This document shows, piece by piece, positions 2,162 through 23,392 of a stretch of DNA of 44,868 nt; the first letter of the stretch is position 1; the number at the start of each line of letters is the position of its first letter. Origin of the DNA: a virus; IMG/VR virus record IMGVR_UViG_3300045988_145891; one strand, 5' to 3'. The notes under the pieces are model-generated. The model searched no databases, was not told where the DNA came from, and worked only from the letters and a program-made list of their open reading frames with translations. A program made the translations under genes and the position numbers.

Positions 2162-2165
2162 AATT

Positions 2166-3670: not shown

Positions 3671-3673
3671 ATT

Positions 3674-4006
3674 TTATTTTATTTTTTTGTCCATATGTTT
3701 TTTACCTAAAATCATACCTCCAAGTGCTAAAACAAGATAAGTTAGTTCCTCTGGAATAGGTAGAACATATATTTGTTTTCCAGTAAATGCAGTTAAGTAA
3801 GGTGCAACTATATGTTGATTAATTACCAATAATGAATAAACATAGAATAAGTGGAGTATTCCACCTCTTTCTATTATTCCAGAAAAAGCATTAATTTTTG
3901 TTTTTTCAACATCAGCCATTATCTCATCTACTTTTCCCTTGTCTAAATGTCTTTGGAGTAACTCTGGTAAAAATCTTTTTATTAAACCTAATATAAAATT
4001 ACTCAT
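3674..4006 (-). CDS. Small membrane protein with 2 predicted TM helices (possible holin), ~110 aa; start at the internal ATG with RBS GGGGG
   Basis: Hydrophobic segments LHLFYVYSLLVINQHIV and LTYLVLALGGMILG. The RBS supports the MSNF start rather than the ORF-track MYRKY start. Confidence 0.4.
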   Translation of the reverse strand: MSNFILGLIKRFLPELLQRHLDKGKVDEIMADVEKTKINAFSGIIERGGILHLFYVYSLLVINQHIVAPYLTAFTGKQIYVLPIPEELTYLVLALGGMILGKKHMDKKIK

Positions 4007-4106
4007 AATATACCCCCTATACTTTGCTATTCGTTGAATAATGTATTTCCTATACAAAATACTATAATTAATAGTCTAATGTATAAGAATTGATTTTAGA
4101 TATAAA

Positions 4107-9000: not shown

Positions 9001-9446
9001 GCCATTATCTTGTTACCATTAGAACTATCCATTACCATACCAACATCTTTAAGATAAGTAAATAAGAAAGTAACATCAGCTATTACCTCATTTAAGTGTT
9101 GATTAAGAGTTATTACATCTATCTGTCCACTAGGACTGTATGGAGAAGAAGTTAAGTCAACTACTCTAGCTAATTGTATTGAGTAATACTCATCTAGTAT
9201 ATCTAGGTTAGTTATCTCTAATTGCTTATTTCCACCAACCTCATTAATTCTATAATCTCCCTTAGGCATTTCACTATAAGTTTCTAAGAAAGCTTCTTGA
9301 TTATATTTCCTATAAAACACTGTTACCTTAGTCATATCTATTGTATTAAGCTCATAAGTTGCTTGACCTTTAATAATTAAGAACTCCTTAATAGGTAACA
9401 TTATCTTACCATTTTTAAATCCTGCCATAATTCCTCCTTTATACAA
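6090..9446 (-). CDS. Tail fibre protein with coiled-coil shaft, tail-fibre repeat motifs and C-terminal SGNH/GDSL esterase domain, 1118 aa
   Basis: C-terminus carries GDS (KKIALTGDSICAGAGF), GxND (GGVNDGG) and DxxH (DGWHPN) SGNH blocks. Repeats DNSITTNKIADNAVTVRKI and DNSITQEKI. Long heptad coiled-coil at aa 170-235. Confidence 0.65.
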   Translation of the reverse strand: MYKGGIMAGFKNGKIMLPIKEFLIIKGQATYELNTIDMTKVTVFYRKYNQEAFLETYSEMPKGDYRINEVGGNKQLEITNLDILDEYYSIQLARVVDLTSSPYSPSGQIDVITLNQHLNEVIADVTFLFTYLKDVGMVMDSSNGNKIMAELKPYTTWYMDKDGNMAAMPVDSLFEKFNDLVQELRQEVLKLLEQDLEVAERELLEEVKRQLDEYVETDLKQRLDDYTTQLEERLQTMIDQAVADKGLMPEGSDWLEIGLGNWLVVDLFNKNYIHYPPQLNSSDNAGVVKKDITDGGNSQVIRYYTTTGKMLFVVRINEVWSEWQELGGQTDTMQFTQANHGFVFTAVTLDGATRKWVKANKYTSADGIAIKIDNDRFDVVTRGVVNIPTQARDDKGETFVYDEYYFLSQEVDGGLSRTKNEIGTFQYLAHISEIDGKQVAYIDIGDSYDLDYDVVDLDTAERIGLATKYDINELKESKLDKGNYNGTAEDLDNSKLNKIENGINDTDKNVVNAINKALGNSNTNMQEIEELKNKKISEQDIQDNSIPAYKFKTSSDSDKIKLINLSEEVINAMTGETPVSPTIEDNSITTNKIADNAVTVRKIEDIDIGNYFDKGSIENVDGGYLSSGEILTDEAYSYSHKIKVQPNDLIRNNLYGEPKGGSCYTSDDVFVADLVREGYEEESPGIKQTKGRYRVPNDKTISYVKVNYRTLRENEIVISINREFDNTYYEYNELIFGKKFVKSIEKQMIKDNSITQEKIKSYSLGSSTNIKYVNLFNKNDITPNVYVDGVGDIKDHTRYFLTNFIPIKSLDKIYMPQYGEAIGGYCYDDAGNKISTLKRISYEEPTTGTQIKGLYEVPHNNKISKVRLNGVLGRIDNHTCYLNYISDEYVPYGYKEIIPNVDLKDNIDVATNILYGKKIALTGDSICAGAGFLGGYGKIIADRNNMKYQNIAVGGGTITAEQYSSSGAKRFWICRSIQDLDTDADYVLLEGGVNDGGVKAPLGTITDGYDKSFDDTTYCGAFESMCKQTVERFAGKKIGFIIVHKMSVTYDESYYDISIEMLKKWGIPYVDLHSDCPPLNYIPSLRAKYTYQSDGWHPNEEGYKKYYVDKIESFLRRI

Positions 9447-9472
9447 AAATAGGTGGGTTTCCCCACCTTATT

Positions 9473-9706
9473 TTATGAACCTACTTTAGTCAAAGAAATA
9501 TTAAGTACTAAAGGTCCAGCATCAAGTCCAGAGAACTCTGGTATATCTCCTTTGAATACTATCTTAGTTCCATCATCTTTTTCTACTGTTGCATATAATT
9601 GCTCTCCACTCTCTGCTCCAGGATTTATATCCATAGTTACCATATAAGCACCAGTTGGTAGTTTAACAGGCATATTAAGATTTTGGACTTCTCTATATTT
9701 TCCCAT
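9473..9706 (-). CDS. Hypothetical small virion/head-associated protein, 77 aa
   Basis: ORF with RBS directly downstream of the major capsid gene. Confidence 0.35.
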   Translation of the reverse strand: MGKYREVQNLNMPVKLPTGAYMVTMDINPGAESGEQLYATVEKDDGTKIVFKGDIPEFSGLDAGPLVLNISLTKVGS

Positions 9707-9811
9707 ATTATTACCTCCTATTTAGTTTTAGATTTAGCTTTAGGTTTTAAATCAACCATATCATCAAAGTTCATTGTTGATGAGAATAAACCGACTGTTG
9801 CTGCTGCTGTG

Positions 9812-10822
9812 TCAGGCACTAGCCTTTGTATTAACAGGGTTTCCAGATTCTCCTAAGAATACTTCTTCATAAGCTAATGTAGTTTCTGGTTTAGCACTGA
9901 ATTTCCATAGTCCTAATGGATTGATAACTCTAGCACCAACAGATTTAGAAACAACCATAGCGAATGTATCTTCATTTAGTAAGTCCTCTTTAGAAGAACT
10001 TCTTACACTACCTTCCCAAGAAACAACCTTGATGTTATCTAGTGTGCATATCCACATAGTTCCTGGTTTAACATAGTAGTTTCTTCCACTACCTTCTCCA
10101 TAGTTTCTATCTAAGTCTTCTACTTCCTCAATAGCAACTCCACAAACAGTAGTAAATGTCATACCATTTATACCAGTCATATGCTGGTAATCTTTGTCAG
10201 CAAATATTGCTTCTCCTCCAGCTAATAACTCAATCTTAGACCAATCTAAGTGATGAATAACACACCAAGCTCCATAATCTCCTTTAACTTTCTTACCTTT
10301 AAATCTTCCTCTAGCATATACTAAAGCAGCTTTAAACATTCTTAAGTTTTTAGGGTGGTATAAAGGTAAAGAAACATCTCCAACTTTATTAATAGCTGGT
10401 AATAATGGCTCTGCATCTTCCATAGCCTTAACAATCTCAATGTCCTCTCCTATCTCTAATGCTTCTACTAGAGTAGTCATGAACCAAGTTTTCTCATTTA
10501 TTCCACCATTAGCCATTAAAGACTGTCTTTGCTCATAGTTAAGAGTTTCATGTCCATATAGTGGGTGTGGAGAAATCTCGAATGTTCTAGTTCCGCCAGC
10601 AGTACCTTTTGGTTTTGGAGAAGCATATAAATTAGGAGCTTCCCTCTCATAGTTACCTGGTGTTCCGAATGTAATTACTTTAGACTCGCCTTGAATTACC
10701 TCGAAGTCACAATGTTGTCTAAATCTTCCACCTACACTAGCTTGTAGCATAGGTTTAATAGTTCTGTCAAAATCTTTTTCGAGCTGAGTACCAGACTCTA
10801 CCCATTGTCCTTTGTTAGCCAT
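9812..10822 (-). CDS. Major capsid protein (putative), 336 aa
   Basis: Position downstream of the scaffold gene in terL-portal-scaffold-capsid synteny. Size similar to T7 gp10A. Confidence 0.5.
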   Translation of the reverse strand: MANKGQWVESGTQLEKDFDRTIKPMLQASVGGRFRQHCDFEVIQGESKVITFGTPGNYEREAPNLYASPKPKGTAGGTRTFEISPHPLYGHETLNYEQRQSLMANGGINEKTWFMTTLVEALEIGEDIEIVKAMEDAEPLLPAINKVGDVSLPLYHPKNLRMFKAALVYARGRFKGKKVKGDYGAWCVIHHLDWSKIELLAGGEAIFADKDYQHMTGINGMTFTTVCGVAIEEVEDLDRNYGEGSGRNYYVKPGTMWICTLDNIKVVSWEGSVRSSSKEDLLNEDTFAMVVSKSVGARVINPLGLWKFSAKPETTLAYEEVFLGESGNPVNTKASA

Positions 10823-10833
10823 ATCTAACCTCC

Positions 10834-11658
10834 TTAATAATTAAAATAGTTATCAAATCTCTGAATATCAGATGATTTAACCTTTTGTCTAATTTCACTT
10901 CTAATAGCTTGCTTTTCTTGAGGAGTAATATTTTTATTCTCTCTCAACTTAGCAGCTATCTTAGCATTAACCTCATTAACTGCATCTTCAAAAGAAGTAG
11001 TAGCAGTATCTTTCTTAACCATAGCAGCATTATTTTTAGGCTCTGGATTCTTATTATTTCCAGTGTAGTATTTTCTCATCTCATTTACTATCTTTATCAT
11101 AGCTGGGTTACTCATAACATCTCTATTAATAAGTGCCATAGCTTGTGGGTCATTATTGAATATAGTCTTAAACATATTGCCAATAGCTTTATATTGAGCT
11201 TGTTCTTCCTTAGTTAAGTTCTTTCTTAAGTTCTCTTGTATTTCCTTAGCAGTAGGTTGCTTACTCATTTCAGCTTGTTTCTCTTGAACTTTAAGTAAGA
11301 AGTTACTAATCATTTCTGGGTCTGTCATTCCACATTCCTCAAGTAAAGATACATTAGCTTTAAATTGAGGTGCTTCTATGTCTATCCCTTTTTCTTTTAG
11401 AGTTTCGTAAGGTGTTAAGTCAACTTCCTTTTCTGGCTCTGTGAAATCCATATCATCTGGATTGAAAGGTTTATCCTCTTCTTTTACTTCTTCCTTTTCT
11501 TCTTGCTCTGGAGTATCTACTGCTGGTGGTTGAGGTGTATCAACTGGTAGAGTATCTACTTCTTGAGTTGGTGGAGTATCTGGAGTTTGTACATCAACAG
11601 GTGGTTGAGGTGTATCTCCTTCAGCAAACAGTTGGATATTCAACTTAAACTTTCTCAT
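10834..11658 (-). CDS. Scaffolding protein (acidic, N-terminal KLNIQLFAEG motif), 274 aa
   Basis: N-terminus MRKFKLNIQLFAEGD resembles the LNLQFFA prohead-protease cleavage motif of 80alpha-type scaffold and capsid precursors. Pro/Glu/Asp-rich with helical repeats. Confidence 0.55.
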   Translation of the reverse strand: MRKFKLNIQLFAEGDTPQPPVDVQTPDTPPTQEVDTLPVDTPQPPAVDTPEQEEKEEVKEEDKPFNPDDMDFTEPEKEVDLTPYETLKEKGIDIEAPQFKANVSLLEECGMTDPEMISNFLLKVQEKQAEMSKQPTAKEIQENLRKNLTKEEQAQYKAIGNMFKTIFNNDPQAMALINRDVMSNPAMIKIVNEMRKYYTGNNKNPEPKNNAAMVKKDTATTSFEDAVNEVNAKIAAKLRENKNITPQEKQAIRSEIRQKVKSSDIQRFDNYFNY

Positions 11659-11974
11659 TTTTATCCTCCTTTTCTATTTTCTTTGTGTTGAGTTCGTGTA
11701 TTATTCTAGCTTTTCTAGTTAGTTCCAAATCATACTTAAGTTTCATTAGACTATCTCTTTTGCTTGGATATTGTCCATTTTCAACATAATACATTTCCTC
11801 TCCTTCTTTTATATCCATAATACAATAATTTATTAGATTTTGCAACTCTTTATTATCACAAAACATTTGCAATAGTTTTTTGTATTCTTTATTTACTGAT
11901 AAAACTGTATTTAAGTTCTCATCATAATATCCTTCATTTTCTTTTTTTATTTCTTCAAGCAACTTATTGTCCAT
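11645..11974 (-). CDS. Hypothetical protein, 109 aa
   Basis: ORF between portal and scaffold. Confidence 0.35.
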   Translation of the reverse strand: MDNKLLEEIKKENEGYYDENLNTVLSVNKEYKKLLQMFCDNKELQNLINYCIMDIKEGEEMYYVENGQYPSKRDSLMKLKYDLELTRKARIIHELNTKKIEKEDKNEKV

Positions 11975-13508
11975 TAGTTCCTCCTAACATTTGTTGAGCT
12001 TGTAAACTACTAGCAACTGCACTTTGCTTACTTGCTTCTCTCTCTTGATTAGTTAGCAATAATTCAGTATCTATTCTTAACTTGTCAGCCATATACTCAA
12101 TAGTCTTATCAGTGTTGAATATAAAGAAAGCATCTTGAGGGAAAATACCTTGTGATATTTGCACCATATTAACTATACCTTCTATCTTTTGCATATCAAC
12201 ACTCTTAGTAAGTGCATTGATAAATCTTGCCTTAAAGTATTTGTTATCATCTATCTTTTCTAGTAAATCCTTAGCAAGTAGTATTGCTCTAGGTTTATAG
12301 AAAGTAGGAATTAATACTTCTTTGAATAAGTTAGTTACTGCATCGTCAAATTTTTGTTGTAATAAATTCATTCTATATTGTATCTCATCAGTTGCCCTTG
12401 TAGTCTTGTTTTCAGCACTTCCAAAAGGGTTATTGAAGTGTAGTGCTTGTATAGTTGCTGTAAGTCTATCAATGTCCTTTTCAGTAGGTAATAGAGTACC
12501 TGTGGTATTGATAGGAGTTACTCCAGCCTTAACACTTAGTCCATCTCCTCCCCAGTTTAAACCATTAGGTGTTAAATCAAAAGCTTCTACTAATCTCTTA
12601 TCTCCATATAATAATAATGGTGGGTCAACTATTCTTAATGCTTGTCTAGCTCTTAAATTTTCATAGAATACTAATCTTTGGTAACAATCTAAAGCAACTG
12701 CACCTATTCCCATTCCCCAGCTAGATTGAGGTACAACACTAAATCTAAATACTGTGAAAGGGTTATAGTCATATATTCTCTCATCATATACTTCTGCTAT
12801 ACTATCATCAAATAATAACCACTCAAATTTTTGAACTCCATTCTCATTAAAAGGTACAACACATTCAGTAAAAGTAAATTTATTGTCTTCTTCTAAACTT
12901 CCAATATTAGCTCCAGGAAATATCTGAACTATTTCACTAGACTTTTTATTATAAACTTTTCTAAAGACTATATTAGGTTCTCCTCTATAATCTTCCATAA
13001 ACAATAACTCATTGATAGGAATATATTTAAAGTTAAAAGGGTCTGCATCAGAACTTAATTCATTTATTCTATAACAAGCTGTTCCAAGCTCCCCCCAGTC
13101 ATAAATACCTCTACCAATCTCTTGTTTGTAGTTAGTATTTCTTAAATACTCAAAAGTATCTTTTGTTTGAGATTCTAAAGTTTTTCTCAATTTCTTGACT
13201 GTTTCCTCTAATGCTTCTCCTGTAAATTTTCTATTCTGCCTAACTAGAGGAATAATAACATCACTCTCTGCCCAATCAGTTTCAACACCAAATAGTGCAT
13301 AAATAACAAAATTTTTAAAAGAATTACAAGCATCTCTTATCTCTGAATTTATGGTCCTATTGATAAAATCCTCTGGTAGTGCTATTGTATCAGCGTGTCC
13401 AAAAGGTAAGGTGTATTCCATTATCTGATTATATTGTGGAATGATAGCTTGTTTTTCAGCAACACAAGCCTTATAAAGTTCTTGATAATGTTCTAAATTA
13501 TTAAGCAC
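11964..13508 (-). CDS. Portal protein (putative), 514 aa
   Basis: Size and position between the terL region and the scaffold/capsid genes. Confidence 0.5.
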   Translation of the reverse strand: MLNNLEHYQELYKACVAEKQAIIPQYNQIMEYTLPFGHADTIALPEDFINRTINSEIRDACNSFKNFVIYALFGVETDWAESDVIIPLVRQNRKFTGEALEETVKKLRKTLESQTKDTFEYLRNTNYKQEIGRGIYDWGELGTACYRINELSSDADPFNFKYIPINELLFMEDYRGEPNIVFRKVYNKKSSEIVQIFPGANIGSLEEDNKFTFTECVVPFNENGVQKFEWLLFDDSIAEVYDERIYDYNPFTVFRFSVVPQSSWGMGIGAVALDCYQRLVFYENLRARQALRIVDPPLLLYGDKRLVEAFDLTPNGLNWGGDGLSVKAGVTPINTTGTLLPTEKDIDRLTATIQALHFNNPFGSAENKTTRATDEIQYRMNLLQQKFDDAVTNLFKEVLIPTFYKPRAILLAKDLLEKIDDNKYFKARFINALTKSVDMQKIEGIVNMVQISQGIFPQDAFFIFNTDKTIEYMADKLRIDTELLLTNQEREASKQSAVASSLQAQQMLGGTNGQ

Positions 13509-13519
13509 AATAACACCTC

Positions 13520-13837
13520 CTATTTCTTAGAGTATCTACCTAAGAACTTATCCCACTCATCTTCTTGCTTAGTAAGAGTATTGAATATACTAGTGATATC
13601 TCCAAGTCCTGTATCAGTAGTATCTCCTGTTCCTATTTGAGTAGGACTATTTTCTGGCGTGGTAGGTGTAGATAAGCTAGGGTCAGCTTTCTCAACATCA
13701 ACATTCATTTCTGGCATTTTATTCATTCCTGTGATATTAGTTCCTAACACTCCATCAACCAATCCACCAGCAACATTACCAACACTTTCTACCAGTTTAC
13801 CTGGTATTTTTGAAATTTCTTTGATAGGATTTCCCAT
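13520..13837 (-). CDS. Hypothetical protein, 105 aa (Gly/Thr/Pro-rich)
   Basis: ORF between moron and portal. Confidence 0.35.
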   Translation of the reverse strand: MGNPIKEISKIPGKLVESVGNVAGGLVDGVLGTNITGMNKMPEMNVDVEKADPSLSTPTTPENSPTQIGTGDTTDTGLGDITSIFNTLTKQEDEWDKFLGRYSKK

Positions 13838-13849
13838 AGTAATACCTCC

Positions 13850-14593
13850 TTATAATATATTGTTTGATAATATCATATAATTTATATTATCTTTTGTAAA
13901 TTCTTTTTTATTTTTATATCTCTTAGACAATCTTTTTAGCCAAGTTCCTGTACCTTTTAAGGTCCAACAAAAACCAATACAACCATAAGTGCTGTGAATA
14001 TATTCTAGTAACTCATTACCATCACTAAAAAAGTTCTTAGGACTACCAAAATTGATATAACTAAGAAAAGGAATTGTACCAATAACATTAAGGCACATAA
14101 AAAATCCATCATAGAAAAACACTCTATCATTCTGATAATTATTCAAAAAATGAGGATATTTAATTAAATCAACTTCTGGCATCTTATCACTAGGTATTTC
14201 AGTAAATTTACCAAAATGTCTGTTTTTTAATAAATTATTTATTAGTAATCTACTAAGTTCTTTCTTAATATCATAATCATCACTAATAATAATAACTAGG
14301 TCCACTTGAGGAATATCAGTTATATTGTTTCTATAAAGATAATTACTATGAAAAATATTTTTATAAGTTAAATGGTTACGACTTGTTTTATATTTTTTAG
14401 CAACATTCTCAATCTCCATATAACTACTTATTTTCTCAACTATTGCTTTTTTACAAAAAAGTCTAATAATATTATTTATAAAATTAAGTTTTTTTAGGTT
14501 AGGTTTTAACTCTCCTTGATATAAACTATCACTTGATTTTATATTTTTTTCAACTAACATATCTAAATCAATAACTAATTTATTATCAATCAT
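13850..14593 (-). CDS. Hypothetical Asn/Ile/Lys-rich protein, 247 aa; moron-like insertion between terL and portal; DxD-like motif VDLVIIISDDYD
   Basis: Visibly more AT-rich than the flanking terL and portal genes. Breaks the usual terL-portal adjacency. Confidence 0.4.
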   Translation of the reverse strand: MIDNKLVIDLDMLVEKNIKSSDSLYQGELKPNLKKLNFINNIIRLFCKKAIVEKISSYMEIENVAKKYKTSRNHLTYKNIFHSNYLYRNNITDIPQVDLVIIISDDYDIKKELSRLLINNLLKNRHFGKFTEIPSDKMPEVDLIKYPHFLNNYQNDRVFFYDGFFMCLNVIGTIPFLSYINFGSPKNFFSDGNELLEYIHSTYGCIGFCWTLKGTGTWLKRLSKRYKNKKEFTKDNINYMILSNNIL

Positions 14594-16092
14594 CAGAAAT
14601 TCCCCCTAAAGTTACTAAAACTATTTCCTTTTAATTTACTTGTCATCATCTCTGAAATAAGATTATCTACTGCCCTTCCTCTAAATCCAGGAATATTAAC
14701 ATTAGTTATTCTAGCAACATCGGACTTCATTATCTTATCTCTTACGTTTTTATCATATCCTTCCTCAAACATTTCGCCAAATATGAAAGCAACTAGGTAC
14801 TTAAGACTATCAATAACGTGGTCTTCATAAATACCACTTCTCTTGTCAACTTCCATAGTAGGTTTACCTGTTATTTTATTTTCCTTGTAATTAACACTCG
14901 CTAATTCCTTGATAATAGCATCTCCTAACTCCCCAGCAATAATACCAAGTCTACTAGTTTCTAACACTCTTCTAGTTATTTGTAATAGTCTAATATTATC
15001 AGTTCTCTGAATGATATTAACTCTCCAATTGTATGGCACGTGTTTTTCTATCTCTTTTTTCCTATTCAACTTACCAGAATATCCTTGAATATCGTGAGCA
15101 GCATCAAAAGGTAATATGATATTAACCTTATGAGTTGAGTACTTATTCACTTGATTATGTATTTCCTCAATAAATTCTGATAAATTAGTCTGATTCTTAA
15201 TCATTCTATTAACAATAACAGGAAAGTCCATTTTCTCATCTCTATAACAAGTGTACATAACAGTATAGTCTGACTGTCCTAAGTCAAAACTAAAATATAA
15301 CTCTCTATGTTGCCCTAATGTAAAGTCACTAACAGGTATTCTTCTAGCCTTAAGTAAACTCTCTCCAAGTACTGAAAATGAGTTCATAACAGCAGTACTA
15401 CACATATACTCTTGCTCAAAACTAGATGAGTCAAATTCAGCTCTTAACATTGTTAGCTTATCATCTGGATATACTCTACTACCATCAGCATTATGTAATA
15501 TATTAGCAGGTACTCTTACTTTGATGTATCTTTGAGATTCTGGCAAGTTACCATCTATCAGCTCGTTAAAGTCTGATGAATAGAATGGTGTACTAATCTC
15601 AAGTATTCTACCATTTGCCCTGTTTACGTTACCTTTTAAGTACTTCCAAGACTCTCTAGGAATACGAGAACTTTCAGTAATAATAAGTGCATCAACTGAT
15701 GTTCCTAATTCACTGTTTTGGTCGCTACCAGCAATATATAATATACTACCATTCTTATACTTAAAACAACTCATCTCTCTGTGGAAATAATCTCCAGCAA
15801 GAGTAGGTTTTAGTAAATCAGTATCAATAATACCCATAAACATTGGTTTACCTGTCTTATCATCATTAGCAGTAAGTATCTTCTTAACTGCCTTAAGACT
15901 AACACCTAAATAGACAATGTTACTACCAGGTTTACATACTGCCAATGTATTAGCACACATAACACCTGTGAAGTCCTTACCAGCTCCTCTAGCAGCAGTA
16001 AGAGCTATCCTTGCTTCTGGTAATAAGAACTGTTGCATAACATATTGTTGGAAATCTCTAAGTAAAAATCTTGGTAATAGTTTCTTACTCAT
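14593..16092 (-). CDS. terL: Terminase large subunit (putative), 499 aa
   Basis: Walker-A-like LTAARGAGKD near the N-terminus. Asp-rich C-terminal nuclease-like region (ILPFDAAHD). Translationally coupled (ATGA) to the upstream small gene. Lies upstream of the portal. Confidence 0.55.
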   Translation of the reverse strand: MSKKLLPRFLLRDFQQYVMQQFLLPEARIALTAARGAGKDFTGVMCANTLAVCKPGSNIVYLGVSLKAVKKILTANDDKTGKPMFMGIIDTDLLKPTLAGDYFHREMSCFKYKNGSILYIAGSDQNSELGTSVDALIITESSRIPRESWKYLKGNVNRANGRILEISTPFYSSDFNELIDGNLPESQRYIKVRVPANILHNADGSRVYPDDKLTMLRAEFDSSSFEQEYMCSTAVMNSFSVLGESLLKARRIPVSDFTLGQHRELYFSFDLGQSDYTVMYTCYRDEKMDFPVIVNRMIKNQTNLSEFIEEIHNQVNKYSTHKVNIILPFDAAHDIQGYSGKLNRKKEIEKHVPYNWRVNIIQRTDNIRLLQITRRVLETSRLGIIAGELGDAIIKELASVNYKENKITGKPTMEVDKRSGIYEDHVIDSLKYLVAFIFGEMFEEGYDKNVRDKIMKSDVARITNVNIPGFRGRAVDNLISEMMTSKLKGNSFSNFRGNF

Positions 16093-16316
16093 CTCTTAGT
16101 CATCTCCTCTATTATCTCATTTATCGTCTTATGTCCTTTCCTACTTTCCAAATACTCATCCCATACCTCTGGGTACTTAGTAGTTAGGAAATATACCAAG
16201 CTAGTATCAGTAATTAAATTAACATAACACTCATACTCATTATTACTTTTCTTTTTCTCAAGAAGTTTTTTCATCTTCTCCCTATACTCTGGAGTATCTG
16301 TTATAAATCCCATCAT
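16089..16316 (-). CDS. Hypothetical protein, 75 aa
   Basis: ORF overlapping the terL start (ATGA). Confidence 0.35.
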   Translation of the reverse strand: MMGFITDTPEYREKMKKLLEKKKSNNEYECYVNLITDTSLVYFLTTKYPEVWDEYLESRKGHKTINEIIEEMTKR

Positions 16317-16768
16317 AACTCCTCCCCGTACTTAATCATACCCATAGCAATACTATGTTCTGCCATCTTCTCTTGTACATGTTGTGACTTAGCTTTTATT
16401 CTCAACTCTCTCTCTCTTTGTAATAATTCTATTCTAGTCTTGTAATCAGCAATAAATCCTGTCATATTACCATCTGTCTTACTTAATTCAGTGAAGTTCT
16501 TAATCAACTTATTGTATATGTCAAGCTCTCTATTAGCTTCCTCTGAACTTATCTTACCCTTATTGATATTGTCATATACCTTAAACAACTTACCTCTTAT
16601 TTCCTTGATAGTAGCCTTATACTGTTTCTGCACTTCCTCAACACTATCCTCACTCATAACATTTATAGCAAGTTCTCTTACTGCTAATTCAATAACTTCC
16701 TCACAGCTTATCTTAAGTTTCTCACTTAACATCTCAACTGTATCTAAGTCAATGTTTGTTAAATTCAT
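16313..16768 (-). CDS. Putative terminase small subunit / DNA-binding protein, 151 aa (first gene of the late operon)
   Basis: Position and possible N-terminal HTH (DTVEMLSEKLKISCEEVIELAVRELA). RBS AAAGGAG. Confidence 0.3.
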   Translation of the reverse strand: MNLTNIDLDTVEMLSEKLKISCEEVIELAVRELAINVMSEDSVEEVQKQYKATIKEIRGKLFKVYDNINKGKISSEEANRELDIYNKLIKNFTELSKTDGNMTGFIADYKTRIELLQRERELRIKAKSQHVQEKMAEHSIAMGMIKYGEEL

Positions 16769-16789
16769 TTTATCAACTCCTTTCTTTCG

Positions 16790-16830
16790 ATTATATCATA
16801 TCACTTATTTTATTAAAAGTTTACATTTTT
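16790..16830 (-). promoter_or_regulatory. Late-operon promoter with extended -10 (AATAAGTGATATGATATAAT on the minus strand)
   Basis: TGnTATGAT / TATAAT about 25 nt upstream of the terS-like RBS. Shares the TAAGTGATAT motif with other promoters in this genome. Confidence 0.5.
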
Positions 16831-17289
16831 TAAATTTTTAGGGTAAAATGACTAGTTTTAAAAGTATCTACTCGGGAATTTTTGACACTTTATTTGAAAA
16901 AATATAGGTTTTTTGAAATTTTGTAAACTTTGAGTTGAGATTTTGGAAATTAGGTTATAGTTGGGGTATGCATAGTCGCCAACGTAGGATTTTCGAGGGT
17001 GGGGGGGTAGTCTGTAATAGATTCAGGAATAAGAGTTAAAACCTCTGGAAAAAATAAATGTTATTCTAAATAATTATTATTAAATACAACAAAATAACCA
17101 TACCGCATATAATAAGTATTATCTTTGGTTTAGTTATTCAAGTAATTATTATCGACAATAATTATTACAGTAGGAGCTTGTAATCGCATGATTATGGGAG
17201 TTTGTGAGATATAAGAGGTATAATGGTATGTGTGAAATATAAATGAATATGTTCTCAATCATAATAAATATCATTCTCTTTCATATAGT

Positions 17290-17445
17290 AATTGTAATAA
17301 TCTACTTTGATATTTATATCTAACTTAATACTGCTAACTATCTTCTGCTATCTACCTACTATTATATCTAACTACTTAACTACTATCTACATATATTGTA
17401 TTACTTACTACTATACTACTATTACTTAGGAGAGCATACAATGTA
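17290..17445. repeat. G-depleted, CTA/TAC-rich low-complexity tract with short direct repeats (tatatctaact x2, ctgcta x2, ctactat xN) inside the ~920-bp non-coding region
   Basis: Almost no G on the plus strand for ~150 nt. Repeated 7-11-mers. Confidence 0.5.
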
Positions 17446-17586
17446 AATCTTATTGCTGCCGCACATTAGTGGAAACAACTATCATTTACAACTTACACCA
17501 GCTTTAAAAAGTATGGAGCTTTTCTTATATAGTGTACTGCCAAATATAAATATTACCAGTTTTTACAAAAAAGTATAAAATTAGTA

Positions 17587-17616
17587 TTGACAAAAAAAGA
17601 TGTTATGTAATATACT
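17587..17616 (+). promoter_or_regulatory. Sigma70-like promoter (TTGACA-N18-TATACT) for the 17690-20081 operon
   Basis: Consensus -35 and near-consensus -10 about 70 nt upstream of the first gene. Confidence 0.45.
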
Positions 17617-17689
17617 TATATCAACAAGAGAGATACAGGAATAGTATTATTACTATTTCAGTACAGATTTATAGGAGAGTGATTTAAAA

Positions 17690-18289
17690 ATGACAGTGTA
17701 CAAAGCAACAGTTAGAAACAAACAAACTAATAATTACGAGGTAATATCTGGAGAATACAGCAGCAAAAAAGCATTTATTGAAGATTTAAGACGTAACGGT
17801 TATGCTGTAAATGATAAAAAAGTTAAAAAATCTGATGTTTATGATGCTATTATAAAATATACAGACTGTGATGATGATGCTTGGGCAATATGCAATACAG
17901 TAGAAGATGCTATGGACATCTTTGCAGCTTATGAGAGATACTTTGAAAAAAGAGAAAGAATGTATAATGAAAAGTATGAAGAAGATACAGCAGAGCAACC
18001 AACAGTTGAAACAGTAGAGGAGGAAAAAGAAATGACAACTTACACAGTAATTGATGAAATGAGAAAAGGTACAGACAAAGAGGTGTTCAAAGGTACAGTT
18101 GAGGATTTAAGAAATTATGCTAACAATAGAATAAAAGAGGATATCAAAGAACTTGTTATTGATGAAAGAGAAATTGAATATATTCAAGACTGTTTGATTG
18201 GTAATGATTTTAGCATCATAATTGAAGAAATTGGAGAATATTTATTTGGAGATTCTGGGAAATATACAGTGGCAGGAGTTGATGAATAA
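17690..18289 (+). CDS. Highly acidic protein (~48 D/E vs 28 K/R over 199 aa), first gene of a plus-strand early island; candidate DNA-mimic/anti-restriction protein
   Basis: Composition only. RBS GGAGAG. First ORF after the long non-coding region. Confidence 0.3.
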   Translation: MTVYKATVRNKQTNNYEVISGEYSSKKAFIEDLRRNGYAVNDKKVKKSDVYDAIIKYTDCDDDAWAICNTVEDAMDIFAAYERYFEKRERMYNEKYEEDTAEQPTVETVEEEKEMTTYTVIDEMRKGTDKEVFKGTVEDLRNYANNRIKEDIKELVIDEREIEYIQDCLIGNDFSIIIEEIGEYLFGDSGKYTVAGVDE

Positions 18290-18666
18290 TGAAAGAGTAT
18301 ATATTATTCATCAATGATAACTTTACATTCACAGTATACGAGATAGAGCAAGGACACCAATTAAGACAAGTTTATAGTTATGGTGTCCAAAGATTAGAAA
18401 ATCTATATGATGTATATTGGGAGCTGCTAGAATATGATAAAAACATTGTTAAATGTTATTTAGAGAGCGAACATAGATTTATTGACGCAGACTTGTTTAT
18501 ACCTCTTATCTGGGTATATAAACACACTAAAGATGATGAGCAGCAACTATGGAAAAATAAATTCAAAGATAATAAATATATAGCAATACAAAAAGCTGCT
18601 GAGATATACCAAGCTTTTCAAATAGCAGCTGGTGCAGACTTAGTAAGAGAGGAGATGACAGAATGA
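18289..18666 (+). CDS. Hypothetical protein, 125 aa
   Basis: ATGA-coupled to the upstream gene. Confidence 0.4.
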   Translation: MKEYILFINDNFTFTVYEIEQGHQLRQVYSYGVQRLENLYDVYWELLEYDKNIVKCYLESEHRFIDADLFIPLIWVYKHTKDDEQQLWKNKFKDNKYIAIQKAAEIYQAFQIAAGADLVREEMTE

Positions 18667-18752
18667 AACAGTATTTATTTGGTGGAATAGCAGGAGCTGG
18701 AATAGTATTATATTATTGGTTTGGATTTGATTTTATAGCTAATTTGATTTAA
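18663..18752 (+). CDS. Small hydrophobic peptide, 29 aa (MKQYLFGGIAGAGIVLYYWFGFDFIANLI)
   Basis: ATGA overlap with the preceding stop. Single TM-like segment. Confidence 0.3.
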   Translation: MKQYLFGGIAGAGIVLYYWFGFDFIANLI

Positions 18753-18766
18753 TAGGAGAGTGGAGA

Positions 18767-19771
18767 ATGGAAAAAATAATTAAAACAATAAAAGATGGAC
18801 AAGTGTTTTTAAATACTAAAAAACATGGAGTAAATGCTATTATTAATTTGGGTGGCGTTGATCAAGTACAGATATACAATACACTAGAAGCAGATGTATT
18901 TTTACAGACTGATTTAATTAAAAAAGCTTTTAACGTGCTAGATGATGGCGATATAGAAATATTAAAAGACAAAAAATTAACATTTAAGCAAGATAAAATT
19001 AATTTAAAGGTTGAATTTGAAGAGAATAAAAAGAGTATTGAAGAGTTTAAAGCAGAACATGAAATAATAATTGAGCCTGGAGACATTGAAAAAATAATTA
19101 ATCTTAAAAAAGATATAAAACCAGATGCTGATGCTGTTAAGTATGTTTACATTTCAGATGCTGGAATTGCTGCAACTGATTCTTATAGACTTGGAGTTTA
19201 TAACTCTAATATCTCAAACATTGATACTTGGTTTATGATCCCTTATGCAGTGATAGACTTTTTAGAACTTACAAAAAATAAAATCAAAGTACTAAAGAAA
19301 GAACACAATTACATGTTAGAACTTGGTAGAGGTATAAAAATAACTTGGAAAAATTTTTATACACATTATCCAGACGTTAGAAATGTAATTAAATTCGGAG
19401 ATACTATGGAATGGAACGCAACCTTAAACAGAAAAGAGCTTGAAAAAGTATTGAAAAAAGCTGTTAAAATATCAGTGGATAACACAGAGAATAAAAATAG
19501 TACTCTATGGACTATCAAAAAATATTCTAACATCTTAGAAATTTACGCAGCTAATAAAAAAATGGATATTACACAGGAATTAAAAATTGAAGCTGAACAC
19601 GATTTAAAAATATCACTTAATGGTCCAAATATATTAGATTACTTAAAAAGAGTTAAAAAAGATGATGTTAATTTCAAATTCATAGGATCTAATTCAATGA
19701 TAGTATTTGAAAATGATGATTATAAATATTATTGCATGCCATTAGCTTGGAGAGATAAAGATGATAAATAA
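18767..19771 (+). CDS. DnaN-like DNA polymerase sliding clamp (beta subunit homolog), 334 aa
   Basis: Motif IAATDSYRLGV matches DnaN ATDSHRLA. Downstream IPYAVIDFLELTK resembles DnaN VIPGKSLTELSK. YPD motif. C-terminal MPLAWRD resembles the clamp C-terminus. Confidence 0.55.
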   Translation: MEKIIKTIKDGQVFLNTKKHGVNAIINLGGVDQVQIYNTLEADVFLQTDLIKKAFNVLDDGDIEILKDKKLTFKQDKINLKVEFEENKKSIEEFKAEHEIIIEPGDIEKIINLKKDIKPDADAVKYVYISDAGIAATDSYRLGVYNSNISNIDTWFMIPYAVIDFLELTKNKIKVLKKEHNYMLELGRGIKITWKNFYTHYPDVRNVIKFGDTMEWNATLNRKELEKVLKKAVKISVDNTENKNSTLWTIKKYSNILEIYAANKKMDITQELKIEAEHDLKISLNGPNILDYLKRVKKDDVNFKFIGSNSMIVFENDDYKYYCMPLAWRDKDDK

Positions 19772-20081
19772 AAATAGCAAAGATTATATAACAACCTTAG
19801 AAACATATTTAAAAAGATTGGCTGGAGATAATCCAGCCTTTACTATACTAACTCAATTCAAGTCTAGCAGCTACTACGGTAGAAAAAATAAAATAGGACC
19901 AGCTGCAGCCTTTAAAGAGTTTTTACAAGCTGGAGAGATTCCAGGATTACCCATCACAGATGAGCAACTAACAACTTTCTTTAAAAATATTATGTTAGCA
20001 AGTCCAGGAGAACTGGAGAGAATGAAAAACAAGTTTAATACTTATTCAAACATCATTTATAGATTTATTAGGGAGTCTTAA
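19761..20081 (+). CDS. Hypothetical protein, 106 aa
   Basis: ORF overlapping the clamp gene end. Confidence 0.4.
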   Translation: MINKNSKDYITTLETYLKRLAGDNPAFTILTQFKSSSYYGRKNKIGPAAAFKEFLQAGEIPGLPITDEQLTTFFKNIMLASPGELERMKNKFNTYSNIIYRFIRES

Positions 20082-20098
20082 AAGACTCTCTTTTTTTT
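20072..20098 (+). terminator. Rho-independent terminator (GAGTCTT-aa-AAGACTC + T8) overlapping the stop codon of the 106-aa gene
   Basis: 7-bp stem followed by TTTTTTTT. Confidence 0.65.
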
Positions 20099-20434
20099 AT
20101 TCCTGGAATAATACCAAGTCCAGCAGATGCCACCATCTTATTTTTAATTTTATGAGCTAATAACACTATTTAACTATTACACCATATCTTTATTTATATA
20201 TCTGACCTCGTAAAATACCTCTAAAAAGCTTTCTAAAACATTTTAGGTATAAATAATAGACTAGATATTTTTAAATTTTTTAGACATAAATTAAAGCTTG
20301 ATATAAAATAATTATTATTTTTAAATTATTTTTTATTTTTTACTACTCCAGGAGCTGCAGGAGCAAAGAGAACCCCCCAACCCATCAGTTTTTTTTAAAA
20401 CAGCTCCGTTAATAAAAGGACTGGCAAATTTACC

Positions 20435-20593
20435 TAATAAAAGAGAAAAACCCCACGATTAAGTGAGGTTTTGTGAGAGATAAAATTTAATTTTGTAGTA
20501 GATACCTTAATAAGTTATCAGTGGATATTAAATTATTAGGAATCTTAAAATAATCCTGCCTTTTTATTGAGAGACATAACTCATAATTAATAT
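20435..20593 (-). ncRNA. Putative ~160-nt small RNA bounded by a sigma70-like promoter and a rho-independent terminator, in the 550-bp intergenic region
   Basis: The promoter at 20601-20629 points into a region with only a 6-codon ORF. Minus-strand hairpin AACCUCAC-uuaauc-GUGGGGUU followed by UUUUUCUCUUUUAUU at about 20433-20472. Confidence 0.4.
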
Positions 20594-20600
20594 AATATTA

Positions 20601-20629
20601 TTTTACCTTCTTTGTTAATAAAAGTCAAT
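20601..20629 (-). promoter_or_regulatory. Promoter A (minus): TTGACT-N17-TAAAAT; its -35 and spacer are a 19-nt copy of promoter B (TTGACTTTTATTAACAAAG)
   Basis: Sequence identity with the promoter upstream of the Erf gene. Lies 3' of the 155-aa gene stop and is directed into the intergenic region. Confidence 0.45.
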
Positions 20630-20631
20630 TT

Positions 20632-22437: not shown

Positions 22438-22449
22438 TCCTGCTACCTC

Positions 22450-22605
22450 CTACTTATTTTTCAACTTCTCTGTTAAATCTTTAATCTTTTCTTCTAGCTC
22501 TGCAATATCCTTGTTTTTGCCTTTTTTACCTCTAATGTAGCAAGCAACAAATCCTAATATTCCTCCTACTACGAATCCTAATGCAAAATATCCTTGTGGT
22601 GTCAT
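22450..22605 (-). CDS. Small membrane protein, 51 aa (N-terminal TM + charged coiled-coil tail)
   Basis: RBS GGAGGT 7 nt before the ATG. Absent from the ORF track because it is shorter than 60 aa. Confidence 0.45.
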   Translation of the reverse strand: MTPQGYFALGFVVGGILGFVACYIRGKKGKNKDIAELEEKIKDLTEKLKNK

Positions 22606-22659
22606 CTAACATACCTCCTTTTAAGATTAAAGGCAGCCATATAGACTGCCAAGATTTAT

Positions 22660-22772
22660 AGGATTGATAAAAATATTTCCTGTTTTCATCTTACTTAAGT
22701 TTACAAGTTACTAAAACAGGATTGATAAAAAATGTGTCTATTTTCTTACTTAAGTTTACAAGTTACTAAAAC
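22660..22772. repeat. Two tandem ~55-58 bp direct repeats (aggattgataaaaa...cttacttaagtttacaagttactaaaac); copy 1 is framed by an 8-bp inverted repeat CCTGTTTT/AAAACAGG
   Basis: Near-identical 29-bp cores at 22689-22717 and 22746-22772, plus repeated aggattgataaaaa heads. Confidence 0.7.
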
Positions 22773-22777
22773 ACTAC

Positions 22778-22823
22778 AAATATACCACATTATTTATTTA
22801 TAAATATACCATATTATTTATTT
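22778..22823. repeat. Tandem ~23-bp direct repeat (aaatataccaYattatttattta x2) overlapping the 3' end of the DUF3310 gene
   Basis: Two adjacent copies differing at one position. Confidence 0.6.
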
Positions 22824-23392
22824 AATTTCAATCCATTTTTGCTATCAATCAACCAACCTAAGTATTTATGAGCTTTTTCTAAGTCCTCTACACCATTCTT
22901 TTTATTAGTTCTCAATGCGTATTTAATTACATTCCCGTGTAAAAATCCCTCAAACTGCTCTTTAGTCAATACAGCTTTTATTATATCTAATACTTCTACG
23001 TCAAGTCCATCAAGTTTATAGTGGTTAGGTTGATTTACATTATCCTCAACAGTTTTTATTCTCCCTGGAGTAGCTTCACATATTGCCCGCACTGTTTTTT
23101 CTACATCTTTTTTAATCTCTTCGCCTAATGTTTTTTCAGGCTCAAAATATTTTTCAAATAATTTTACAAATTCTTCAGCACTTTCCACTAATTGACCTTT
23201 ACCAGCATAATCATTTTGTACACAATCTTTTTCATTTGTTGAATTAAAAAACGTAAAAGGACACTCCTTACAATCTACCCCTGTACATTCTCCTTTTTGT
23301 TTAATTATTTTTTTGCAATTATCTACATGTACTGGTAAAATCTCCTCAAAATCTTCTCTTTTCATTCTATCACCCTTTATGCTTAAACTCAA
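22814..23392 (-). CDS. DUF3310-domain protein with N-terminal Cys-rich region, 192 aa
   Basis: C-terminal NQPNHYKLDGLDVEVLDII...FLHGNVIKYALRTNKKNGVEDLEKAHKYLGWLI matches the conserved phage DUF3310 pattern (HY...G.E.ID.I.....F..GN.IKY..R...K.....DL.KA..YL). Confidence 0.5.
   Translation of the reverse strand: MSLSIKGDRMKREDFEEILPVHVDNCKKIIKQKGECTGVDCKECPFTFFNSTNEKDCVQNDYAGKGQLVESAEEFVKLFEKYFEPEKTLGEEIKKDVEKTVRAICEATPGRIKTVEDNVNQPNHYKLDGLDVEVLDIIKAVLTKEQFEGFLHGNVIKYALRTNKKNGVEDLEKAHKYLGWLIDSKNGLKLNK

What the first reader, a model, noticed from the sequence alone, without database searches (positions are those of the whole stretch)
16769..17689. ~920-bp non-coding hub with G-rich patch and G-depleted CTA-rich tract: candidate pac/cos and/or replication origin
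This is the longest non-coding stretch, between the late-operon start and a plus-strand island. It carries opposed promoters (minus extended -10 at 16795-16830; plus TTTACA-N18-TAAAAT about 16820-16849). A relatively GC-rich patch (~16950-17010) includes a G7 run (gagggtgggggggtag). There is a near-palindrome around 17150-17175 and a ~150-nt tract almost devoid of G on the plus strand with repeated tatatctaact / ctgcta / ctactat units (17290-17445). Strand-asymmetric repeats next to terS are typical of packaging or origin sequences.
Basis: seen in the sequence. Interest (0 to 1): 0.55.

Follow-up and report, generated by a model that had tools for sequence, protein, structure and literature searches.

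The report
Conserved non-coding control hub in phage
The 920-base gene-free stretch is real and is a conserved, modular DNA control region at the head of the packaging and structural genes in a family of uncultured low-GC phages. It is most likely the place where the genome is recognised and cut for packaging rather than the replication origin, but its physical function is still untested.

Summary
The described features are all at the stated coordinates. They are conserved. Nine related phage lineages, with TerL down to about 50% identity, carry a gene-free hub of 0.5-1.4 kb with the same module order on the late strand:
- a small GC hairpin;
- a lineage-specific direct-repeat array (the CTA-rich tract);
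- a purine-rich run;
- a G-free CA/CT tract;
- AATAATTATT palindromic boxes, which in most lineages flank an imperfect palindrome;
- a strong outward promoter.

I found no conserved ORF, no Rfam family and no consensus RNA structure.

The canonical origin candidate lies elsewhere. Three AGTAACG iterons plus an A-rich tract sit inside the replisome-organizer gene at 29.74-29.83 kb, and none of these iterons occurs in the hub. GC skew simply follows coding strand.

My best reading (confidence about 0.35) is a packaging or terminus recognition region, of cos type or a T7-like concatemer junction, embedded between divergent promoters. The rivals are a bidirectional transcription insulator or late-control region, a second origin, and unstructured RNAs.

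No physical-end data exist, because every full-length contig is a circular permutation.

A looser, inverted second copy at 20300-20420 remains unexplained.

The parts
16769..17689 (.). Whole gene-free hub between the terS-position gene (minus strand) and the first gene of the plus-strand island.
   Evidence: Gaps of the same size occur in relatives. No conserved ORF. No Rfam or tRNA hit.
16790..16798 (-). Extended -10 (TGATATAAT) of the promoter for the terS-TerL-portal operon. The AAGGAG ribosome-binding site is at 16778-16783.
   Evidence: Read in the sequence. TATGA/GTATAAT is conserved in L004, L006 and L007.
16819..16929 (.). Invariant inverted repeat AGTTTACA ... TGTAAACT. The arms are at 16819-16827 and 16920-16929, just upstream of the late promoter. 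It is a candidate regulator-binding pair.
   Evidence: All 8 pairs are invariant in 4 lineages. It is present only in the window clade.
16953..17011 (-). GC-rich core on the late strand: ACCCCCCCACCC (C7 at 17001-17007), then GTTGGCGAC, then TATGCATACCCCAACTATAAC.
   Evidence: A C7-8 run is present in 10 lineages. A CGGC-like motif follows about 27 nt later and a second C4-5 run about 40 nt later in most lineages.
17063..17171 (.). AT-box and palindrome core. AATAATTATT-type palindromic boxes lie at 17069-17078, 17142-17153 and 17157-17166. They flank the imperfect palindrome ACCGCATATAATAAGTATTATCTTTGGT at 17102-17129.
   Evidence: This is the best-conserved block between the window and distant relatives (blastn hits to L009, L012 and L016). 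It is the only part of the hubs with consistently negative folding z-scores, and it shows them on both strands.
17188..17253 (-). CA-rich tract that is G-free on the late strand (C-free on the plus strand). It contains a conserved -10-like element on the plus strand (TATAAT at 17219-17224) followed by TATGTGT.
   Evidence: The equivalent tracts in relatives are 43-136 nt.
17290..17428 (.). Lineage-specific direct-repeat array. It is CTA-rich and G-poor on the plus strand, and TAG-rich and C-poor on the late strand.
   Evidence: It is the unique genome-wide cluster of TAGTAG/ATAGTA/TAGTTA words. It is inverted in L009 and L080.
17447..17463 (.). Small GC hairpin with a tetraloop (TGC-GGCA-GCA on the late strand) followed by CAATAAGAT, at the outer edge of the repeat array.
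   Evidence: Read in the sequences. Stems differ between lineages (GCC/GGC, AGGC/GCCT, TAGCAGC/GCTGCTA, TCC/GGA). It was flagged as terminator-like on the anti-late strand in L004. A formal pair count was not obtained, because the alignment failed.
17587..17616 (+). Near-consensus sigma-70 promoter TTGACA-N18-TATACT for the plus-strand island (199-aa, 125-aa, beta-clamp and 106-aa genes).
   Evidence: 11/12. Conserved in relatives.
20300..20420 (+). Looser, inverted second copy of the AT-box, T-run, CCAGGAG and C-run module. AATAATTATT is at 20307-20316 and CCCCCC at 20373-20378. An invariant 19-mer, CAGCTCCGTTAATAAAAGG, is at 20401-20419. The copy lies between two convergent terminators.
   Evidence: Conserved in L004, L006 and L007, although the C-run is degenerate in L004.

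Best explanation
The hub is a conserved, non-coding, DNA-level control region at the head of the packaging and structural operon. I read it as the genome-maturation region: the site where terminase recognises concatemeric DNA and where the virion genome end is made. This could be a cos-type site or a T7-like concatemer junction. The region is flanked by outward-facing promoters.

Proposed roles of the parts:
- The family-invariant GC-rich core (C7-8, CGGC-like motif, C4-5) is the cleavage or end-defining element.
- The AATAATTATT palindromic boxes, together with the central imperfect palindrome where it is present, form a bendable assembly platform for a conserved protein. That protein could be TerL, a conserved phage factor or a host factor.
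- The fast-evolving direct-repeat array is the lineage-specific small-terminase binding array.
- The strong promoter 40-420 nt downstream of the C-run faces into the genome.

What is shown: conservation, module order, absence of coding or structured-RNA signal, the promoters, and a better origin candidate elsewhere. What is inferred: binding partners, cleavage, and that ends map here at all.
For: - **Family-wide conservation.** The hub has the same module order and orientation relative to the terS-TerL operon in 10 lineages.
- **Adjacency to terS.** It lies directly upstream of the terS-position gene in the window, L004, L006, L007, L008 and L071/L072, and two genes away in L068.
- **GC-rich island.** A short GC-rich island in AT-rich non-coding DNA is the usual look of cohesive-end regions in low-GC phages (established knowledge). 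The C7 run is unique in the window.
- **Conserved core versus lineage-specific repeats.** L004 and L006 have identical terS and a 0.90-0.95 identical repeat array, against 0.86 TerL DNA identity. The window and L004 have 71% terS identity and a 0.55-0.68 identical array.
- **Not a gene or a known RNA.** No conserved ORF, Rfam hit or consensus RNA structure. The palindromic core folds on both strands, so it looks like a DNA-level palindrome.
- **Origin candidate elsewhere.** It lies inside the replisome-organizer gene.
- **T7-like virion module.** The phage has a PF12236 portal and an internal-virion-protein gene followed by 676- and 1610-aa genes. T7's concatemer junction likewise combines a terminal repeat, strand-asymmetric short-repeat arrays and inward-facing host promoters (established knowledge, from memory).
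- **Contig ends.** About 6 of 26 contig ends seen fall in or beside the hub.
Against: - There are no data on physical ends. Every full-length contig is a circular permutation broken elsewhere.
- The contig ends near the hub fall at different positions. Assembly breakage in a variable, low-complexity region explains them equally well.
- In L009, L012 and L016 the hub is 3.6-6.4 kb upstream of terS.
- The AT/palindrome core and the C-run stay conserved while terS drops to 17-20% identity. The conserved modules are therefore not read by a lineage-specific terS domain.
- The 151-aa protein is terS by position only.
- The inverted partial second copy at 20300-20420 has no role in this model.
- The repeat array is inverted in one lineage.
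- TerL is too distant from characterised terminases to infer the packaging type.
Confidence: 0.35

Rival explanations
1. The hub is a transcription control and insulator region only. It would hold back-to-back strand-pure, unstructured tracts that act as opposing Rho-loading (rut-like) sites. RNA made in the late direction becomes G-free and C-rich in the CA/CT tract and the C-run region. RNA made in the opposite direction becomes G-free and C-rich in the CTA tract. The AT boxes and GTTTACA boxes would be regulator sites for the late promoter. Together these isolate the late operon from the neighbouring unit.
For: - The late strand is C-free for up to 143 nt and then G-free for up to 136 nt. 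These runs are the longest in their loci and run against the local skew.
- These tracts have folding z-scores near 0 and no consensus structure.
- Sense strands genome-wide are C-poor, with skew of +0.2 to +0.4. Phage mRNAs would therefore be poor Rho substrates, which makes C-rich non-coding tracts stand out.
- In the co-directional relatives the hub begins right after an intrinsic terminator and ends at a strong promoter.
- The second copy lies between convergent terminators, with its C-rich strand matching read-through from the island.
- An invariant GTTTACA inverted pair lies at the late promoter.
Against: - Rho-dependent terminators are not normally conserved at the level of an exact C7-8 run or 10-nt palindromes across lineages of about 50% identity.
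- The host, and whether it has Rho, is unknown.
- No transcript data exist.
- The model does not explain the lineage-specific direct repeats.
Confidence: 0.25
2. The hub is a replication origin, either primary or a second SPP1 oriR-like origin. The iteron-like array would bind an initiator, the AT boxes would be the unwinding element, and the CTA/TTA-rich G-free strand would offer primase start sites.
For: - The direct-repeat array sits next to an AT-rich palindromic region.
- CTA is enriched about fourfold. CTA and TTA are the preferred start triplets of Firmicute DnaG primases (established knowledge, from memory).
- The phage encodes a helicase, a loader and a beta clamp, but no primase was found among the ORFs scanned.
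- TAGATA words cluster only in the hub and in the replisome-organizer gene.
Against: - The organizer gene has its own canonical iteron cluster plus A-rich tract, as is usual for Phage_rep_org_N phages. AGTAACG occurs only there.
- The TAGATA clusters in the gene coincide with I/L-D codon pairs.
- There is no skew switch at the hub in the co-directional relatives.
- The local skew pattern is terminus-like or convergent, not origin-like.
Confidence: 0.12
3. The hub encodes one or more unstructured regulatory RNAs. One candidate is a G-poor, pyrimidine-rich RNA of about 200 nt read on the plus strand, from the conserved -10-like element at 17219-17224 through the CTA tract to the small GC hairpin. 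Another is a C-free UAG-repeat leader read on the late strand.
For: - A -10-like element (TATAAT, TGTTATTAT, TATTGT, TGTTAGTAT) is conserved on the anti-late strand.
- The hairpin stems differ between lineages while the hairpin is kept. In L004 it is flagged as terminator-like on that strand.
- In relatives the RNA would carry CCUC/CUCCC anti-Shine-Dalgarno-like runs.
Against: - No Rfam family and no consensus structure were found.
- The hairpin is only 3 bp in the window and lacks a U-tail.
- The tract sequence is lineage-specific and is inverted in L009.
- No -35 is present.
- No expression data exist.
Confidence: 0.1
4. The hub is mainly a module junction. Its conserved sequences would persist because they serve as homologous recombination linkers where variable early or accessory cassettes are exchanged. 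The second copy would be a relic of such an exchange.
For: - Genes on the far side of the hub differ in every lineage (199 aa; 91 aa; 306 aa; 180 aa; DnaJ-domain block; LPD11/MJ1673 block), while the hub and the late operon stay.
- L004 versus L006 shows mosaic identity, 0.95 / 0.6 / 1.0 along the hub.
Against: - Some blocks are more conserved than the adjacent coding DNA.
- The invariant C7-8 run and the ordered modules argue for direct function, not mere linkage.
Confidence: 0.08

Closest known systems
Lambda-type cos region (cosQ-cosN-cosB upstream of the small terminase gene) and cos regions of low-GC Gram-positive phages
   Same: - A non-coding region at the head of the terminase genes.
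- A short GC-rich core in AT-rich DNA.
- Partial two-fold symmetry.
- Neighbouring protein-binding repeats and bendable AT tracts.
   Different: - No cohesive ends have been shown.
- The hub is about 0.9-1.4 kb, much larger than a cos site.
- The repeat array lies on the far side of the core from terS.
- In three lineages 3.6-6.4 kb of small genes separate the hub from terS.
- A partial inverted second copy exists.
T7 concatemer junction (terminal repeat flanked by the SRL/SRR short-repeat arrays, followed by the strong host promoters A1-A3)
   Same: - T7-like portal and internal core proteins.
- A non-coding region of about 1 kb.
- Strand-asymmetric short-repeat arrays.
- A strong sigma-70 promoter 40-420 nt downstream of the core, facing into the genome.
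   Different: - No terminal repeat is demonstrated.
- No phage RNA polymerase was found among the ORFs scanned.
- In the window clade the first genes behind the promoter are the packaging and structural genes, not early genes.
- There is no sequence similarity.
Iteron-type phage origins (lambda ori; SPP1 oriL/oriR; in-gene origins of Phage_rep_org_N replisome organizers such as Tuc2009 and r1t)
   Same: Direct repeats lie next to an AT-rich region with a palindrome. SPP1 also shows two distant cis sites.
   Different: The organizer's own iterons (AGTAACG x3) are inside its gene and are absent from the hub. The hub is linked to the late operon, not to the replication genes.
Rho utilisation (rut) sites / Rho-dependent terminators
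   Same: Tracts of 70-140 nt or more that are C-rich, G-free and unstructured, one on each strand.
   Different: The flanking motifs are conserved in exact sequence. Rho dependence and transcription through the tracts are untested.

Membership tests
cos site (lambda-like or low-GC Gram-positive phage type) | Virion DNA ends with complementary single-stranded overhangs that map to the site. | not testable with these tools
   Only assembled contigs are available, and all full-length ones are circular permutations.
cos site (lambda-like or low-GC Gram-positive phage type) | Located next to, and upstream of, the small terminase gene. | tested here: inconclusive
   The hub is adjacent to the terS-position gene in the window, L004, L006, L007, L008 and L071/72. 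It is 3.6-6.4 kb away in L009, L012 and L016. The terS assignment itself is by position only.
cos site (lambda-like or low-GC Gram-positive phage type) | A GC-rich nicking core with flanking terminase-binding repeats. | tested here: inconclusive
   A GC-rich C7-8/CGGC/C4-5 core and a lineage-specific repeat array exist. Neither binding nor nicking has been shown.
T7-like direct-terminal-repeat junction | A direct terminal repeat at both virion ends. | not testable with these tools
   The window's 55-nt terminal overlap lies in a tail gene and is an assembly artefact.
T7-like direct-terminal-repeat junction | A T7-type virion module and inward-facing host promoters near the end. | tested here: met
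   PF12236 portal and an internal virion protein hit. A strong promoter lies 40-420 nt downstream of the C-run in all lineages.
Iteron-type replication origin | Repeats matching the initiator's binding sites, within or beside the initiator gene. | tested here: not met
   AGTAACG x3 occurs only at 29742-29769, inside the replisome-organizer gene, and is absent from the hub.
Iteron-type replication origin | A compositional skew switch of origin polarity. | tested here: not met
   There is no switch at the hub in L009 or L012. The local pattern has the opposite polarity.
Known structured RNA families (Rfam 15) | A covariance-model match at the gathering threshold. | tested here: not met
   There are 0 matches in the window. 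The only sub-threshold hit has E=6.8. RNAalifold predicts 0 consensus pairs over the tract.
Protein-coding gene | An open reading frame conserved in one frame across relatives. | tested here: not met
   Six-frame segments match in several frames and on both strands, which is the pattern of conserved DNA rather than coding sequence. Indels are not multiples of three.
Rho-dependent terminator (rut site) | An unstructured stretch of about 70 nt or more that is C-rich and G-poor on the transcript. | tested here: met
   This test covers composition only. Transcription and Rho dependence were not tested.

The most novel reading that the evidence does not exclude
The hub may be a previously undescribed kind of phage genome-end or boundary element. 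An invariant oligo(dC)7-8 core, flanked by AT palindromes, would be read by a conserved host or phage factor. The two opposing strand-pure, structure-free tracts would act as single-strand or RNA landing pads (for Rho, primase or an end-binding factor). Together they would couple genome entry or packaging to transcription insulation. The inverted second copy would bound an exchangeable early-gene cassette.
Probability: 0.15. Interest if true: 0.65.

Novelty: new variant of a known kind. Interest (0 to 1): 0.45.

Why it matters
This phage family has no cultured representative. It has no DNA match in the INPHARED phage records, and its TerL and portal are only about 25-30% identical to their nearest proteins there, from two Fusobacterium phages. 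The hub is its most distinctive conserved non-coding feature.

If the hub is the packaging or terminus site, it gives three things: the correct genome start for annotation, a cis element for building packaging or transduction tools, and a test case for how a conserved cut site pairs with a fast-evolving recognition array.

If it is instead a bidirectional insulator or a new end element built on an oligo-C core, it would be a new regulatory design. The invariant C7-8 plus AATAATTATT signature is also a simple marker for finding relatives.

Tried and rejected
- **Known RNA and tRNA.** The Rfam gathering and E-value scans and the tRNA scan found nothing.
- **Hidden gene.** Rejected by six-frame comparison across 8 lineages.
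- **Structured RNA.**
  - RNAalifold gave 0 consensus pairs over the tract.
  - Near the promoter it found only an invariant inverted repeat plus two short weak stems.
  - Sliding-window folding z-scores are near 0 except at the palindromic core (an earlier attempt timed out).
- **Relatives in public collections.**
  - INPHARED DNA search found none.
  - The GTDB representative genomes gave none by TerL.
  - The GTDB 18-mer scan returned only chance hits, many of them apparently coding sequence.
  - The IMG/VR pattern AATAATTATT-N-ACCCCCCC returned 45 unrelated hits.
  - JGI metagenomes returned only the L004 contig again and one short contig.
- **Fusobacterium phages phiBB and FNU4** (the nearest TerL and portal). 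They have no comparable hub. The apparent gap in FNU4 contains an unannotated ORF.
- **Packaging type from TerL relatives.** Microbacterium phage Akoni and Alteromonas phage ZP6 are too distant, and their records are not informative.
- **terS identity.** No Pfam, PHROG or PDB match. A single-sequence AlphaFold model (pLDDT 70, all-helical) gave no meaningful fold hit.
- **DnaA boxes, dif/Xer sites, Fur boxes, TcdR-type promoters, and TRAP or HutP UAG-repeat sites.** I considered these by eye. Each is a partial resemblance that is not conserved across lineages.
- **G-quadruplex reading of the G-run.** The number of G-tracts is not conserved.
- **Hairpin covariation count.** Abandoned because MAFFT misaligned the short sequences.
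- **Contig-end mapping.** Ends are enriched near the hub but fall at different positions, so this is not evidence of a unique terminus.
Full report
**Setting**

The window is a complete, circularly assembled phage genome of about 44.8 kb and 30% GC. Its first and last 55 nt are identical and lie in a tail gene.

- **Late operon.** It runs on the minus strand from 16768 leftwards and wraps round to about 35602. It includes TerL (14593-16092), a PF12236 T7-type portal, an internal-virion-protein homologue followed by 676- and 1610-aa genes, and tail genes.
- **Plus-strand island.** 17690-20081 encodes four proteins, including a beta-clamp homologue.
- **Replication module.** It lies at 27.4-35.5 kb and includes a Phage_rep_org_N/DnaD-like replisome organizer and a DnaB-like helicase. 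Erf and Mu-Gam-like genes lie at 21-27 kb.
- **Nearest known phages.** Nothing similar at the DNA level is in INPHARED. The closest TerL and portal, at 25-30% identity, belong to two Fusobacterium phages.

**The observation**

- the 921-nt gene-free stretch;
- the minus-strand extended -10, TGATATAAT, at 16790-16798;
- the plus-strand TTTACA-N18-TAAAAT at 16820-16849;
- the G7 run at 17001-17007, the only 7-mer G/C homopolymer in the window;
- the palindrome AATAATTATT at 17157-17166;
- the CTA-rich, G-poor repeat tract at 17290-17428.

The tract gives the best tandem-repeat score in the window. It holds 17 CTA, against 4.0 +/- 1.8 in composition-matched shuffles. It is the only genomic cluster of TAGTAG/ATAGTA/TAGTTA words.

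Two corrections are needed:
- G-depletion as such is not unusual in this genome. Sense strands are generally C-poor, and longer G-free runs occur in coding DNA.
- The -10 of the plus-strand promoter is not conserved in relatives.

**Comparative anatomy**

A TerL search found 26 relatives. I fetched the contigs of 11 of them, and two more relatives came from IMG/VR.

A gene-free hub of 0.9-1.4 kb (about 0.5 kb in L008) is present in all but the most distant lineage fetched (L070) and one short contig (L067).
- It lies directly upstream of the terS-position gene in the window, L004, L006, L007, L008 and L071/72.
- It lies two genes upstream in L068.
- It lies 3.6-6.4 kb upstream, followed by a strong promoter and about 11-25 small genes, in L009 (= L017 + L080), L012-15 and L016.

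On the late strand the order of modules is the same everywhere:
1. A small GC hairpin with a tetraloop.
2. A direct-repeat array whose sequence is lineage-specific. It is C-poor to C-free (up to 143 nt) and is inverted in L009.
3. A purine-rich run ending in GCAT.
4. A G-free CA- or CT-rich tract of 43-136 nt.
5. AATAATTATT-type palindromic boxes, flanking an imperfect palindrome (ACC..AGATAAT...TTATTATATG.GG) in all but L071.
6. After 14-120 nt, an invariant C7-8 run. In most lineages a CGGC-like motif follows about 27 nt later and a second C4-5 run about 40 nt later.
7. After 40-420 nt, a strong sigma-70 or extended -10 promoter facing the downstream genes.

The genes on the far side of the hub differ in every lineage.

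**What the hub is not**

- **Not a hidden gene.** Six-frame comparison shows matches in several frames and on both strands, and the indels are not multiples of three.
- **Not a known RNA.** There is no Rfam match at gathering score and only one hit at E=6.8.
- **Not a conserved structured RNA.**
  - RNAalifold predicts no consensus pairs over the repeat and purine tracts.
  - Near the promoter it finds only the invariant AGTTTACA/TGTAAACT inverted repeat plus two short, weak stems.
  - Folding z-scores are near zero across the hubs except at the AT-box/palindrome core, where both strands score, as expected for a DNA palindrome.

**Origin or packaging?**

The replisome organizer belongs to the Phage_rep_org_N family (62% identical over its N-domain to streptococcal phage proteins). 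In this family the origin usually lies inside the gene (established knowledge).

The window matches that pattern. AGTAACG occurs exactly three times in the genome, at 29742, 29753 and 29763, directly followed by an A-rich tract. The hub contains none of these iterons.

In the co-directional relatives the GC skew keeps its sign across the hub. The local skew pattern inside the hub is of convergent or terminus polarity, not origin polarity. I therefore rate the origin reading low (0.12).

The packaging or terminus reading fits the anatomy better:
- the hub stays linked to the upstream side of the terS-TerL operon in a fixed orientation;
- it has a short GC-rich core in AT-rich DNA;
- it pairs a conserved core with a fast-evolving repeat array;
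- the repeat array tracks terS similarity in the few pairs available;
- an inward-facing strong promoter follows the core, and the virion module is T7-like, recalling the T7 concatemer junction (from memory, not tested).

This reading is unproven:
- All full-length contigs are circular permutations broken elsewhere.
- About 6 of 26 contig ends seen fall in or next to the hub, but at different positions. Assembly breakage in a variable, low-complexity region explains that equally well.
- The conserved core persists while terS falls to 17-20% identity. Whatever reads the core is itself conserved: TerL, another phage protein or a host factor.
- The 151-aa protein is called terS on position alone. 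A low-confidence all-helical model is its only other support.

**A strong rival**

The two back-to-back strand-pure, structure-free tracts have the composition expected of opposing Rho-loading sites. In a phage whose mRNAs are markedly C-poor they stand out.

The hub begins after an intrinsic terminator in the co-directional relatives and ends at a promoter. A bidirectional insulator and late-control region is therefore plausible (0.25). It is also compatible with a packaging site in the same hub.

This rival does not explain the exact conservation of the C7-8 run and the palindromes.

**Unexplained second copy**

AATAATTATT occurs only three times in the window: twice in the hub and once at 20307. 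That third box is followed, 56 nt later, by CCCCCC at 20373-20378 and by an invariant 19-mer at 20401-20419. All of this lies between the convergent terminators of the island and the Erf operon, and in inverted orientation relative to the hub.

The gap is conserved in L004, L006 and L007, although the C-run is degenerate in L004. None of my models assigns it a role.

**Other leads**

- An invariant GTTTACA inverted pair brackets about 100 nt just upstream of the late promoter, in the window clade only.
- A conserved -10-like element on the plus strand (17219-17224) points into the CTA tract. The small hairpin at the tract's far end is scored terminator-like on that strand in L004. An unstructured G-poor RNA of about 200 nt is therefore possible but unsupported.

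**Verdict**

This is a new variant of a known kind of element, in an uncharacterised phage family. Interest is moderate (0.45), because the function cannot be settled without read-level or experimental data.

Noticed in passing
window 29742-29832: Three AGTAACG repeats at 10-11 bp spacing are the only copies in the genome. They are followed by an A-rich tract, inside the Phage_rep_org_N replisome-organizer gene (29343-30254). This is the likely replication origin.
   Followed up: partly
window 20082-20631: A 550-nt gene-free gap between convergent terminators is conserved in L004, L006 and L007. It holds an AT box, a C-run and an invariant 19-mer, CAGCTCCGTTAATAAAAGG (20401-20419). It is a looser, inverted copy of part of the hub.
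   Followed up: partly
window 1-55 and 44814-44868: An exact 55-nt terminal overlap lies inside a tail gene. The window is therefore a circularly closed assembly, and its ends are arbitrary.
   Followed up: yes
window 35602-44858 and 1-16768 (minus strand): The virion module is T7-like: a PF12236 portal and an internal-virion-protein homologue followed by 676- and 1610-aa genes. No phage RNA polymerase was found among the ORFs scanned. Replication relies on a DnaD-like loader, a DnaB-like helicase and a phage beta clamp.
   Followed up: partly
window 22778-22824: A 24-nt unit (AAATATACCACATTATTTATTTAT) is repeated twice at 95% identity. It gives the second-best tandem-repeat score in the window. 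It straddles the start of the intergenic gap 22438-22813 and the 3' end of the DUF3310-like gene.
   Followed up: no
whole window; L009 and L012: Sense strands are strongly C-poor and G-rich (GC skew +0.2 to +0.4). Cumulative skew therefore simply tracks gene orientation and cannot be used to find the origin.
   Followed up: yes
L017 + L080 (IMGVR_UViG_2811995142_000001, 42.8 kb): A relative of the L009 lineage is recorded from what appears, by its IMG identifier, to be an isolate genome. Its two contig ends abut, as for a circular molecule. This suggests carriage as an episome or in a persistently infected culture, and it is a route to the host.
   Followed up: partly
L004, L006, L007, L068 (flanks of the hub): Relatives carry variable accessory genes near the hub, including Tad2-like, Sequestin, SpoVG-like, HNHc_6 and DUF3310 genes. 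The gene block on the anti-late side of the hub differs in every lineage, so the hub is a mosaic boundary.
   Followed up: no
L008 1-19: The contig begins with the Nextera transposase adapter sequence AGATGTGTATAAGAGACAG. This is untrimmed adapter in a public Logan contig.
   Followed up: no
L065 (Fusobacterium phage FNU4, OQ808964.1 about 43800-44440): An apparently unannotated ORF runs to the end of the record, just upstream of TerL. The record start appears to split a terS-position gene.
   Followed up: no
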